Assembly: GCA_035509435.1 (NCBI GenBank)
Contig: DATJLR010000007.1
Span: forward strand, 1,555-65,554
Reading direction: 5' to 3'
Origin: Minisyncoccota bacterium
Lineage (GTDB): Bacteria; Patescibacteriota; Minisyncoccia; UBA6257; 2-01-FULL-56-20
DNA: 64,000 nucleotides
Made by a program: the position numbers and the translations under genes. Numbering within the stretch: the stretch's first letter is position 1; every line of letters begins with the position of its first letter. This document shows, piece by piece, positions 21,037 to 27,774 of the stretch. Under the pieces are notes generated by a model that saw only the letters and a list, made by a program, of their open reading frames with translations, was not told the origin of the DNA and ran no database searches.

Positions 21037-24000
21037 CTAGCTACTAGTTTCCAGGACTGCTTCTTCTTCCGCCACGTCCGACTCGTGGAGCATTTCGTCC
21101 GGCGGAAGGTCGCGCTTGCCGGCCGGGATCAGGCGTCCGATGATCACGTTCTCCTTGAGACCGCGGAGCTTGTCGATCTTACCCTCGATGGCGGCTTTGA
21201 CAAGCACGCGCGAGGTATCCTGGAACGACGCCGCGGAAAGGAATGACTCCGCCGAAAGCGCGATGCGCGTGATGCCAAGCAGCACCTCTTCCGACTTCGC
21301 CGGCTTCTTGCCCGCCTTCTTGAGCTCCTTATTGACCTCAAGGAACTTGGACTTCTCCACGATCTCGCCCATCACGAAGTCATCCGCGTCGCCGCCGTCC
21401 GTGATCTTTACGCGCGAGAACATCTGCTTCACGATCATCTCAACGTGCTTGTTGTTCGGCGCGACGCCTTCCGAAAGGTAAATGCGCTGCACTTCGTTCA
21501 CGATATAGCGGCCGGTCTCTGCCGTGCCTTTGTGTTCAAAGAGCTCATGGATGTCAAGGTTGCCTTCCGAAAGGCGGTCACCTTTCTGGACCTTGTCCCC
21601 CGCCTTCATAAAGAGAACCGTACCGCGCGAGACGCTGATCTCCTGGGCCTTGGCCTTCTTGTTCTCGGCGATAAAGCGGACCACTTTGAGCGTGCCGCGC
21701 TCTTCTATCTTGTCGATCGTGCCGTCGAACGGCGCGAGGATGGCGCGGCCTTTCGGCGCGCGGGTCTCAAAGATCTCCTCCACGCGCGGAAGTCCGTGCG
21801 TGATGTCGGCTCCGGCGACGCCTCCCTGGTGGAACGTACGCATCGTAAGCTGGGTGCCAGGTTCGCCGATGGACTGCGCGGCGATGACGCCGACCGCGGT
21901 GCCGAGCTTGACCGGCTCGTTGTTGCTGAGATCATAGCCGTAGCATTTTGCGCAGACGCCGTAGAGCGTCTTGCACGCAATGGGCGAACGGACAACGACC
22001 GCGTCGATCTTGGATGCCTCGATCTCGTCGGCCTGATCGCGGGTGATGATTTCGCCGGCGCGGACGACGATCTTGTTGCCGATCTTCACGTCGTTGAGCA
22101 CGGTGCGGGAGAAAAGTTTGGACGCGAAGCTGTGGTTGAATTCCTTGCCGTCGCTGCGCAGGATCTCCAATCCCTCTTTTGTCCTGCAATCCTCTTCGCG
22201 GACGGTAAGGTCCTGCGAGACGTCCACGAGGCGGCGGGTAAGATATCCTGCCTGCGCGGTCTTGAGCGCCGTGTCGGTGGTTCCTTTGCGCGCGCCGTGG
22301 GTCGCGATGAAGTATTCAAGCACCGACATGCCCTCCTTCAGCGAGGACTTGATGGGGAGCTCGATGGTCTCGCCCTTCGGGTTCTGCACGAGGCCCTTCA
22401 TGCCCATCATCATGATCGGCTGGGACCATGAACCGCGCGATCCGGAATCGACGATCTGATAGATCGGATTGTCTTTGGAAAGGAGCCCGGTGACGATCTT
22501 TGCAAGGTCGGCTTTGGCTTTTTCCCAGATGCTGATGATGCGGCTGCGCCGTTCCGGCGGGGTAAGCAAGCCTTCGGCAAACTGCTCGCTGACGAGCGCC
22601 ACTTCATCGTTCGCCTTCTTGATGATGTCTTTCTTTTCCGGAGGGAGCACGAGGTCCGCCATCGCCCAGGTGATGCCGGACACGGTCGCCATGTCATAGC
22701 CAAGCACCTTGACCCGGTCGATCACGTCACGGGTGGCGTCGATGCCGTGCGTCTCGAAGACCTTGCCGAGCATCAGGTTCAACTTCTTCTTAGTGATCGT
22801 GTCGTTCACGAAATCCATCGTTCCGCCAAGCGCCTCGTTGAAGATGAGCCGGCCGACGGTCGTCTCCAGGCCGTTGAACATGACCGGTGTGTGGAGCGTT
22901 ATGTATCCGAAGTGGTATGCAAGGAGCGCCTCGTTGAGGTCCGCGAAGCGGCGCAATTCGCCGGTCGCTTCGTCCTTGCGGGTAAGGTAGTAGCTGCCGA
23001 GCACCACGTCGTTCCACGGCCCGACGATCAGGTCGCCTGTTGCAGGCTTCAATAAATTGCGGCCCGCGGACATGATCTCGCGCGCTTCCTGCTGCGCCGC
23101 TTCCGAGAGCGGGAGATGAACGGCCATCTGATCACCGTCGAAGTCCGCGTTGAATGCGGCGCAGACGAGCGGCGGGAGCTTCAACGCCAACCCTTCGACG
23201 AGCTGCGGACGAAACGCCTGCACCGAAAGGCGATGAAGCGTCGGCGCGCGGTTCAGGAGCACGTGCTTGTCCTTGATGATCTCCTCAAGGATGGCGAGCA
23301 CTTCCGGCGTGTGCTCTTCTATGAAGCGCGACGCGCTCCGGATGTTGTGCGCCAATCCCTGCTTGATAATTTCACTGATGACGAACGGGCGGAACAGCTC
23401 CAACGCCATGCGCTTCGGGATGCCCATCTGGTCCAGTTTGAGCTTTGGACCGACGACGATCACCGAACGGCCGGAGTAGTCCACGCGCTTGCCGAGCAGG
23501 TTCTGGCGGAAGCGGCCCTGCTTGCCCTTGAGCATGTCGGCAAGCGAGCGGAGCGGACGGCGCTGGGCCGACATCTGTTGCGTGCCGAAGCGCGCCGAGT
23601 TGTCGATCAATGCATCCACTGCCTCCTGGAGCATGCGCTTCTCGTTGCGGACGATGACATCCGGCGCCTTGATCTCCAAAAGCTTCTTGAGGCGGTTGTT
23701 GCGGTTGATGACGCGGCGGTAGAGGTCGTTCAGGTCGGAGGTCGCGTAGCGTCCGCCGTCGAGCGCCACCATCGGACGGAGGTCCGGCGGAAGCACCGGC
23801 AGTACGGTCGTGATCATCCATTCCGGACGTCCGCCGTTGCGGAGCATGGCTTTGAACATCTTGAGCCGGCGGAGCAGTTTGCTTTGCGCCATCGGATCCT
23901 TTGCGCCATCGAGCTCAGCTTCGATCGCTTTCACTTCCTTCTTGAGATCCAGCTTCTGCAGGATCTGCTGGACGGCTTCGGCGCCGCTCGACGCCTTGAA

Positions 24001-27000: not shown

Positions 27001-27774
27001 GCGCTCGAACATCGCGGCAATGAGGTTCTTTGCGGTGTCGGCAGCGGCCGGATCGCCCGGGCGCTGGCGCTTATAGATCTCTATATATGACTCAGCCGCG
27101 TCCTTCGCGACATCTTTCTTTAATGTCGCATCGATATACTTTATAAGGCCCGTGTCCACGCCCGCGAACGTCTCTTTTATCTTTTCCGTATCCATGCCGA
27201 AAATGCGAAGCAGGTCGCTTACCGGCACCTTGCGGTGGCGGTCGATCTTGACGCTGATCGTGCCGTCGATGTCGGTCTCGAACTCAAGCCACGCGCCGCG
27301 GTTCGGGATGATCTTGGCGCCAAAGAGCGAGCGGCCGCGGTACGGCACGGCGGTAAAGTACACGCCGGCGGAACGGACGAGCTGGGCCACAACGACGCGC
27401 TCGACGCCGTTCACGATGAACGTGCCGCGCGAGGTCATGATCGGGAAGTCCCCGAAGTACACTTCCTGCTTGTGCTCCTTGCCAGTGCGGTTGTTCACCA
27501 GGCGGAGCGTGCAGCGAAGGGGCGCCTCGTACGTCGCTTCTTTGTAGCGCGCGGTCGTCTCGTCATACTTCGGTTCGTCAAAACGATAGTTGGAGAAATA
27601 GAGCTCGAACTCATGTCCAGTATGATCGCGGATCGGCGAGATCTCCTCGAGCAGTTCGTTCAATCCTTTTTCGAGAAACCACTGGTATGACTTCAACTGC
27701 GCCTCGTTGAGGTTGTATGGGGAGATGAGGGGTTTTGATTTTGAAAAGTCTTTTGTGGAGGTGAATTTTGCCAT
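21037..27774 (-). CDS. rpoBC: Fused DNA-directed RNA polymerase beta-beta' (RpoB-RpoC in one 2245-aa ORF)
   Basis: The N-terminal ~1130 aa carry RpoB motifs (fork loop, [26 protein letters not shown]). Linker [38 protein letters not shown] runs straight into RpoC, with zinc-finger [35 protein letters not shown], and trigger loop. No stop codon or frameshift between the two. Confidence 0.9.

What the first reader, a model, noticed from the sequence alone, without database searches (positions are those of the whole stretch)
21037..27774. rpoB and rpoC are fused into a single 2245-aa ORF
The RpoB C-terminus (...[13 protein letters not shown]) continues through linker [13 protein letters not shown] into the RpoC N-terminus ([25 protein letters not shown]) with no stop or frame change. 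Beta-beta' fusions are known in Helicobacter/Wolinella and Wolbachia but are not a general CPR trait to my knowledge.
Basis: partly seen in the sequence, partly recalled or inferred. Interest (0 to 1): 0.55.

Follow-up and report, generated by a model that had tools for sequence, protein, structure and literature searches.

The report
Fused RNA polymerase beta-beta' gene
The two big catalytic subunits of bacterial RNA polymerase are encoded here as one 2245-residue protein, a real fusion shared by a whole clade of tiny "Parcubacteria" (CPR) bacteria that arose separately from the well-known Helicobacter fusion; it is a modest, lineage-marking curiosity, not a new kind of system.

Summary
Window 21037-27774, on the minus strand (the finding gave no strand), is one uninterrupted 2245-codon ORF. 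All RpoB Pfam domains lie at aa 22-1046 and all RpoC domains at aa 1056-2150. They are joined by about 10 residues ([10 protein letters not shown]) with no stop, frameshift or usable internal start.

It is not an assembly artefact. At least 134 protein clusters (90% identity) from NCBI, JGI, ENA and Logan are full-length fused proteins of 2240-2322 aa, 68-93% identical. Of 118 examined, 110 have the same junction spacing of 104 codons. Synonymous sites across the junction are near saturation, while the frame, length and a linker motif are conserved.

Named members are Candidatus Liptonbacteria, Ryanbacteria and Paceibacterota (Parcubacteria group). The nearest outgroup found (57% identity) and the other Patescibacteria loci sampled keep separate genes. 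In a tree the fused sequences are monophyletic (100% bootstrap) and far from Helicobacter, so this is an independent fusion.

The likely origin is a small in-frame deletion of the rpoB stop, spacer and rpoC start. The likely consequence is a tethered beta-beta' core of 250.6 kDa. This is a new member of a known kind. I found no paper describing it. Interest is modest, at 0.3.

The parts
21037..27774 (-). Complete fused rpoB-rpoC (rpoBC) ORF: 2245 aa, 250.6 kDa, ATG start, TAG stop at 21037-21039
24643..27774 (-). RpoB (beta) part, aa 1-1044. Pfam Rpb2 domains 1, 2, 3, 45, 6 and 7 at aa 22-1046. GEMEVWA motif at aa 977-983 (24826-24846).
24613..24642 (-). Linker, aa 1045-1054 ([10 protein letters not shown]): the residual beta C-terminal tail fused directly to the beta' N-terminus. 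Clade consensus is P-[LIV]-Y-x-x-E-x-D-R-[KR]. There is no stop, and no in-frame ATG/GTG/TTG between aa 1037 and 1095.
21040..24612 (-). RpoC (beta') part, aa 1055-2245. It begins at [12 protein letters not shown], which by my recollection of the E. coli sequence corresponds to the conserved FDAIKIALASP near the beta' N-terminus. Pfam Rpb1 domains 1-5 lie at aa 1056-2150.
   Evidence: E. coli comparison from memory
24391..24447 (-). Four-cysteine cluster near the beta' N-terminus (C1110, C1112, C1125, C1128), invariant in the alignments of fused proteins. Assigning it to the beta' zinc-binding element rests on general knowledge of bacterial RNAP.
23131..23151 (-). Catalytic Mg-binding motif NADFDGD, aa 1542-1548, intact

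Best explanation
This is a genuine, vertically inherited in-frame fusion of rpoB and rpoC. It makes the two large RNA polymerase subunits as one 250.6-kDa beta-beta' polypeptide.

Shown:
- One uninterrupted ORF carries complete RpoB and RpoC domain sets and intact catalytic motifs.
- The same fusion, with the same junction length, occurs in at least 134 related protein clusters from independent assemblies, under purifying selection.
- The fused sequences are monophyletic within Patescibacteria (Parcubacteria group; members are labelled Liptonbacteria, Ryanbacteria and Paceibacterota), and the nearest unfused relative keeps separate genes.
- The fusion is unrelated in origin to the Helicobacter fusion.

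Inferred:
- The fusion arose once. A small in-frame deletion (about 11 codons relative to sister locus L002) removed the rpoB stop codon, a short same-frame spacer and the rpoC start. Alternatively the stop was lost first and the region was trimmed later.
- The polypeptide stays uncleaved and folds into a normal RNAP core. The beta C-terminus and beta' N-terminus lie next to each other in bacterial RNAP, so a tether of about 10 residues is enough. Engineered fusions in E. coli and Mycobacterium bovis are active.
- The consequences are an obligate 1:1 beta:beta' ratio and assembly in cis. Catalysis is not expected to change.
For: - ORF and translation. Domain map. No stops in frame and stops in the other frames.
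- There is no in-frame start codon between aa 1037 and 1095. The first later candidate (TTG at aa 1096) would delete the conserved beta' N-terminus. NADFDGD, the four Cys and GEMEVWA are intact.
- Full-length relatives: the 120 listed clusters are all fused, 115 of them 2240-2322 aa and five shorter (1894-2038 aa, two labelled partial by NCBI). They are 70-93% identical and come from NCBI, JGI, ENA and Logan. One search adds 14 more clusters.
- Junction spacing is 104 codons in 110 of 118 sequences, 105 in six, and 112 and 117 once each. The linker motif is conserved.
- At the DNA level, in window vs L081, L082, L083 and L001, synonymous differences are near saturation (pS 0.53-0.85) while pN is 0.03-0.17 over 600 nt. 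In the 20 linker codons pN is 0.02-0.37 against pS 0.74-1.0.
- L081 (91% identical protein, a different metagenome) and L001 have single full-length ORFs.
- NJ tree: the four fused sequences are monophyletic in 200/200 bootstraps. Unfused L002 is sister at 86.5%. Helicobacter is distant.
- Other fused 50%-identity clusters have unrelated linkers and are closest to non-Patescibacteria loci.
- Tolerance of fusion: PMC3993855 reports an active M. bovis beta-beta' fusion with a 10-aa linker and states that such fusions support E. coli growth. bioRxiv 10.1101/2021.11.05.467461 agrees.
Against: - There is no protein-level evidence. Post-translational cleavage into beta and beta' cannot be excluded from sequence.
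- The AlphaFold model of the junction fragment was too poor to test linker geometry (mean pLDDT 55).
- Only 64 kb of the genome is visible, so a second, separate rpoB/rpoC copy elsewhere cannot be excluded.
- The deletion scenario rests on one sister locus (L002). Its placement comes from a simple distance tree of the same proteins, and its NCBI label (Saccharibacteria) does not match that placement.
Confidence: 0.9

Rival explanations
1. Sequencing or assembly artefact: a lost stop codon or a frameshift at a real rpoB/rpoC boundary merged two genes in this assembly only.
For: The unfused sister L002 has rpoB and rpoC in the same frame, separated only by a stop and 9 nt. One base error could therefore mimic a fusion. 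Error-prone assemblies do exist in the databases: L082 has rpoBC chopped into many gene calls, and L083 has a frameshift in the rpoC part.
Against: The same fusion with identical junction length is found in at least 134 clusters from four independent data sources. They differ at most synonymous sites across the junction. The junction is also shorter than any unfused arrangement sampled: 312 nt from GEMEVWA to PETINYR, against 327-498 nt in the other loci where both motifs were found. A missing stop codon would not produce that.
Confidence: 0.01
2. The ORF is fused, but beta and beta' end up as separate polypeptides, either by site-specific proteolysis in the linker or by internal translation initiation.
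For: The linker carries a conserved motif (Y1047, R1053, D1055, F1057 invariant or nearly invariant) that could in principle be a recognition site. The sequence cannot show what happens to the protein.
Against: No in-frame ATG/GTG/TTG exists between aa 1037 and 1095, so internal initiation would lose the conserved beta' N-terminus. No protease or intein domain lies in or near the junction. [quoted passage not shown] Engineered fusions work uncleaved.
Confidence: 0.07
3. The fused gene is a decaying or redundant extra copy (a pseudogene in the making), with functional separate genes elsewhere.
For: Only 64 kb of the genome can be seen.
Against: Purifying selection is strong (pN well below pS). 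The catalytic motifs are invariant across the fused proteins aligned and in this ORF. Full length is conserved. Synteny (ftsW-mltG-rpoBC-rpsF-ssb) is conserved in relatives. CPR genomes are small and, from general knowledge, rarely keep duplicate core genes.
Confidence: 0.02

Closest known systems
Natural RpoB-RpoC (beta-beta') fusion of Helicobacter and Wolinella (Zakharova et al. 1999, cited in Gupta 2006, PMC1557499)
   Same: One ORF encodes complete beta followed by complete beta' in the same order. The beta C-terminus is joined to the beta' N-terminus by a short non-conserved stretch. In both cases it is a clade-restricted rare genomic change that is stably inherited.
   Different: The origin is independent. 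Helicobacter muridarum (L069) lies far from the fused Patescibacteria clade in the tree. Its linker is unrelated and longer: 119 codons from GEMEVWA to PETINYR against 104 here. Its protein is about 2900 aa against 2245 aa here. Here rpoBC sits between mltG and rpsF-ssb; I did not check the gene context in Helicobacter.
rpoBC of Wolbachia and other fused beta-beta' clusters in public data (for example Mycoplasma wenyonii WP_014849752.1, 2648 aa; a JGI protein named 'subunit beta-beta''; P0130, P0136 and others)
   Same: Same architecture. They show that this fusion arises repeatedly in bacteria, several of them with reduced genomes.
   Different: Each has its own linker sequence and length, with spacing from 95 to 153 codons where it could be measured. 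They are 41-51% identical to the window protein overall and are closest to non-Patescibacteria loci.
Engineered beta-beta' fusions (the E. coli fusion cited in PMC3993855 and in bioRxiv 10.1101/2021.11.05.467461; M. bovis RNAP with the 10-aa linker LARHVGGSGA)
   Same: A tether of about 10 residues between the beta C-terminus and the beta' N-terminus gives active enzyme. This supports the idea that the natural 10-residue linker here is sufficient.
   Different: Those are artificial constructs that keep the full native termini. Here the native beta tail and beta' head are trimmed, and the linker is under selection.

Membership tests
Bacterial RNA polymerase beta subunit (RpoB) | Ordered Pfam Rpb2 domains 1, 2, 3, 45, 6 and 7 above gathering score | tested here: met
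   aa 22-1046, E-values from 1e-16 to 2e-124, all above cut-off.
Bacterial RNA polymerase beta' subunit (RpoC) | Ordered Pfam Rpb1 domains 1-5, the catalytic NADFDGD motif and the N-terminal four-Cys zinc site | tested here: met
   aa 1056-2150. NADFDGD at aa 1542, Cys at 1110, 1112, 1125 and 1128.
Natural beta-beta' fusion protein (architecture class, as in Helicobacter, Wolinella and Wolbachia) | Single uninterrupted ORF, with complete beta followed by complete beta', no stop or frameshift, and no separate start for beta' | tested here: met
Natural beta-beta' fusion protein (architecture class) | The fusion is conserved in related genomes from independent assemblies and is under purifying selection | tested here: met
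   at least 134 clusters, with 104-codon spacing in 110 of 118; pN well below pS.
Natural beta-beta' fusion protein (architecture class) | The product exists as one polypeptide of about 250 kDa in the cell and is part of active RNAP | not testable with these tools
   Needs proteomics or expression. The sequence only excludes internal initiation.
Helicobacter/Wolinella rpoBC fusion lineage (the same historical fusion event) | Common ancestry of the fusion: a shared linker and a monophyletic grouping with Helicobacteraceae | tested here: not met
   the fused Patescibacteria clade (100% bootstrap) is nested among unfused Patescibacteria, with Helicobacter L069 elsewhere; the linkers are unrelated.

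The most novel reading that the evidence does not exclude
The fusion may be an old, clade-defining rare genomic change of a Parcubacteria lineage (Liptonbacteria, Ryanbacteria and relatives) that has not been described in the literature. Its conserved, fixed-length linker (P-x-Y-x-x-E-x-D-R-K-D-x-F) may be a selected structural element and not a passive tether. For example, it could enforce cis-assembly of beta and beta' in reduced genomes that have lost assembly helpers such as omega.
Probability: 0.2. Interest if true: 0.45.

Novelty: new member of a known kind. Interest (0 to 1): 0.3.

Why it matters
- It adds a well-supported, independent origin of the beta-beta' fusion. This one lies in the CPR/Patescibacteria, a group with reduced genomes and almost no biochemistry.
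- It provides a clean rare-genomic-change marker for a Parcubacteria subclade. That is useful for taxonomy and for checking bin contamination.
- Gene-calling and marker-gene pipelines that expect separate RpoB and RpoC should take note, because these proteins are currently labelled only as "beta'", "beta" or "hypothetical".
- It offers a compact (2245 aa), naturally tethered RNAP core that could be convenient for heterologous expression of a CPR polymerase.
- It does not change how RNAP is understood.

Tried and rejected
1. Junction-only protein search. It returned only 170-410-aa fragments. These come largely from indel-ridden assemblies, as shown for P0002 on L082. The search missed all full-length relatives.
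2. Locus scans of genome and metagenome collections. I first read this as meaning the clade is very rare. One search, using the full-length query, corrected that.
3. AlphaFold2 of the 311-aa junction fragment with an 88-sequence alignment. Mean pLDDT was 55 and pTM 0.33, which is unusable, so I ran no fold search.
4. PDB sequence search. None of the 60 chains listed (of 124 matches) spans the junction, so no solved fused beta-beta' structure was seen.
5. Seven literature searches. They found papers on the Helicobacter/Wolinella fusion, on Wolbachia rpoBC and on engineered fusions, but none on a CPR fusion. Zakharova 1999 (PMC93870) is not held.
6. The claim that this is the shortest natural tether. 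Rejected, because P0136 has a shorter spacing (95 codons).
7. Profile search with the 12 most divergent members. It added 14 clusters but no new taxon names, so the outer boundary of the clade is not mapped.

Full report
**Observation.** The window contains one ORF at 21037..27774 on the minus strand: 2245 aa, ATG start, TAG stop. The finding gave the right coordinates but no strand. The quoted junction is present. [13 protein letters not shown] (aa 1038-1050) runs through GDRK into [34 protein letters not shown], and the linker codons occupy window 24613-24642. Across 24400-24800 the ORF frame has no stop while both other frames do.

Pfam places the six RpoB domains (Rpb2_1, 2, 3, 45, 6, 7) at aa 22-1046 and the five RpoC domains (Rpb1_1 to 5) at aa 1056-2150, all above gathering score. 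The catalytic NADFDGD (aa 1542), the four N-terminal beta' cysteines (1110, 1112, 1125, 1128) and the beta GEMEVWA motif (aa 977) are intact.

**Is it an artefact?** No.

A search of 1.84 billion cluster representatives with a 233-aa junction-spanning query put the window protein in the cluster of P0121. That protein is 2246 aa and comes from a 79.6-kb JGI contig. It is 91% identical over its full length and sits in the same gene order, ftsW, yceG/mltG, rpoBC, rpsF, then ssb.

A search of 5.8 billion proteins with the full-length query listed 120 clusters, which is the display cap. All carry both Rpb2 and Rpb1 domains, and 115 are 2240-2322 aa; the other five are 1894-2038 aa, two of them labelled partial by NCBI. 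They are 70-93% identical and come from NCBI, JGI, ENA and Logan. A profile of the 12 most divergent members added 14 more clusters.

I extracted the junction from 118 of these sequences. All are fused. The distance from GEMEVWA to PETINYR is 104 codons in 110 of them, 105 in six, and 112 and 117 once each. The linker follows the consensus N-I-[QE]-P-[LIV]-Y-x-x-E-x-D-R-[KR]-[DE]-x-F-[SK]-A-L-[KR]-I.

At the DNA level I compared five independent sequences: the window, L081, L082, L083 and L001. They differ at 53-85% of synonymous sites over 600 nt around the junction but at only 3-17% of non-synonymous sites. In the 20 linker codons pN is 0.02-0.37 against pS of 0.74-1.0. The fusion is therefore old and maintained by selection.

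**Who has it?** NCBI names among the fused proteins are:
- Candidatus Paceibacterota or Pacebacteria bacterium
- Minisyncoccia bacterium
- Patescibacteria group bacterium
- Candidatus Liptonbacteria (three proteins, including A2945_03830 from a RIFCSPLOWO2_01_FULL genome)
- Candidatus Ryanbacteria RIFCSPLOWO2_01_FULL_48 (A3B25_03670)

. NCBI places Liptonbacteria and Ryanbacteria in the Parcubacteria group of the Patescibacteria group. These proteins are annotated only as beta', beta or hypothetical.

The window itself looks like CPR. Its 23S rRNA match spans 4674 nt for a 2925-nt model. It carries a group I intron with a LAGLIDADG endonuclease gene and a 23S intervening-sequence protein gene.

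**Who lacks it?** Scans of one-genome-per-species contigs and of JGI metagenome contigs returned 160 loci. My script checked each for an open frame between the beta and beta' motifs. The only fused loci were L001 (Ca. Paceibacterota SMAG_U14927), L083 and Helicobacter muridarum L069; the motif pair was not found in 10 loci, so those were not scored.

The closest outgroup, L002, is 57.5% identical over both proteins. It has an rpoB stop, a 9-nt spacer and the rpoC ATG, all in the same frame. Other Patescibacteria loci (L003, L005, L008, L012 Zambryskiibacteriota, L037) also have separate genes. So do metagenome loci that cluster with them in the tree (L084, L087-L089, L092).

They under-sampled the fused clade, and my early impression that it was rare was wrong. 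One search corrected it.

**One origin, independent of Helicobacter.** I built a neighbour-joining tree on 646 aligned columns from the beta C-terminal and beta' N-terminal regions. The four fused Patescibacteria sequences group in 200 of 200 bootstraps. Unfused L002 is their sister in 86.5%. The group is nested among unfused Patescibacteria, and Helicobacter lies elsewhere.

Roughly fourteen other 50%-identity clusters also hold fused beta-beta' proteins or long fragments spanning the junction. Examples are Mycoplasma wenyonii WP_014849752.1 and a JGI protein named "beta-beta'". Their linkers are unrelated and they are closest to non-Patescibacteria loci. The architecture has therefore arisen repeatedly, and this is one more instance.

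**How it arose (inferred).** The fused clade has the shortest motif-to-motif distance of all loci where both motifs were found: 312 nt, against 327-498 nt. Relative to L002 it is 11 codons shorter. That difference matches the loss of the last beta residues, the stop, the 3-codon spacer, the Met and the first beta' residues. A single small in-frame deletion fits. So does loss of the stop followed by trimming.

**How it works (inferred).** No in-frame ATG, GTG or TTG exists between aa 1037 and 1095, so beta' cannot be translated on its own without losing its conserved N-terminus. The product should be a 250.6-kDa polypeptide.

Published work shows that tethering is tolerated. A natural fusion makes a single polypeptide in Helicobacter and Wolinella (PMC1557499). 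Engineered fusions support E. coli growth, and an M. bovis enzyme with a 10-aa linker is active (PMC3993855; bioRxiv 10.1101/2021.11.05.467461). The expected effect is fixed 1:1 stoichiometry and assembly in cis, with no change in catalysis.

Cleavage after translation cannot be excluded from sequence alone. An AlphaFold model of the junction fragment was too weak to use (pLDDT 55). None of the PDB chains listed spans the junction.

**Novelty and verdict.** Beta-beta' fusion is a known kind of event. I found no paper describing it in CPR bacteria, although the proteins have been in public databases under generic names. I rate it a new member of a known kind, with interest 0.3. It is a solid clade marker and a handy natural single-chain RNAP core, but it is not mechanistically surprising.

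Noticed in passing
window 33157-37830 (-): The 23S rRNA match spans 4674 nt for a 2925-nt model, which implies about 1.7 kb of insertions. One is a group I intron core (Rfam RF00028, 33989-34187) with an adjacent LAGLIDADG homing-endonuclease ORF (34270-34827). Another insertion encodes a 23S rRNA intervening-sequence protein (PF05635, 35739-36113). Such insertions are typical of CPR rRNA genes.
   Followed up: partly
window 32618-33061 (-): A second LAGLIDADG_1 ORF (E 1e-11) lies between the 5S rRNA (31949-32060) and the 3' end of the 23S match (33157), so it is outside the Rfam 23S alignment. It may be a remnant, or an intron at the extreme 3' end of the 23S.
   Followed up: no
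window 31949-38427 (-): No 16S rRNA gene adjoins the 23S-5S pair. A tRNA-Pro (38356-38427) lies upstream of the 23S instead. This suggests an unlinked rRNA operon.
   Followed up: no
window 20320-20394 (+): ARAGORN calls an odd tRNA with a 2-base anticodon loop ('tRNA-???'), which the Rfam tRNA model does not report. It lies between a histidine-phosphatase gene and rpsF and is probably a false positive.
   Followed up: no
window 19034-30038 (-): rpoBC is not in the canonical rplKAJL-rpoBC-rpsLG context. It lies between ftsW/rodA-mltG(yceG) upstream and rpsF-ssb downstream. The rpoBC-rpsF-ssb order is shared by fused relatives L081, L082 and L001 but not by the unfused sister L002.
   Followed up: partly
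L082 (ENA ERZ25039529 contig_139437) and L083 (Ga0209542_10015374, locus nt ~6670-6682): In L082, relatives' rpoBC genes are broken by indels into at least seven gene calls. L083 has one frameshift in the rpoC part. The junction itself is intact in both. Such error-ridden assemblies explain at least part of the 170-410-aa 'proteins' that dominated the junction-only search.
   Followed up: yes
P0130, P0136 (L163), P0142, P0151-P0161 (protein ids, not in the window): About fourteen further 50%-identity clusters of beta-beta' fusions exist in public data. They include Mycoplasma wenyonii (2648 aa) and an unidentified organism with the canonical secE-nusG-rplKAJL-rpoBC-rpsLG-fusA context and an even shorter junction (95 codons). 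A systematic census of independent rpoBC fusions appears not to have been published.
   Followed up: partly
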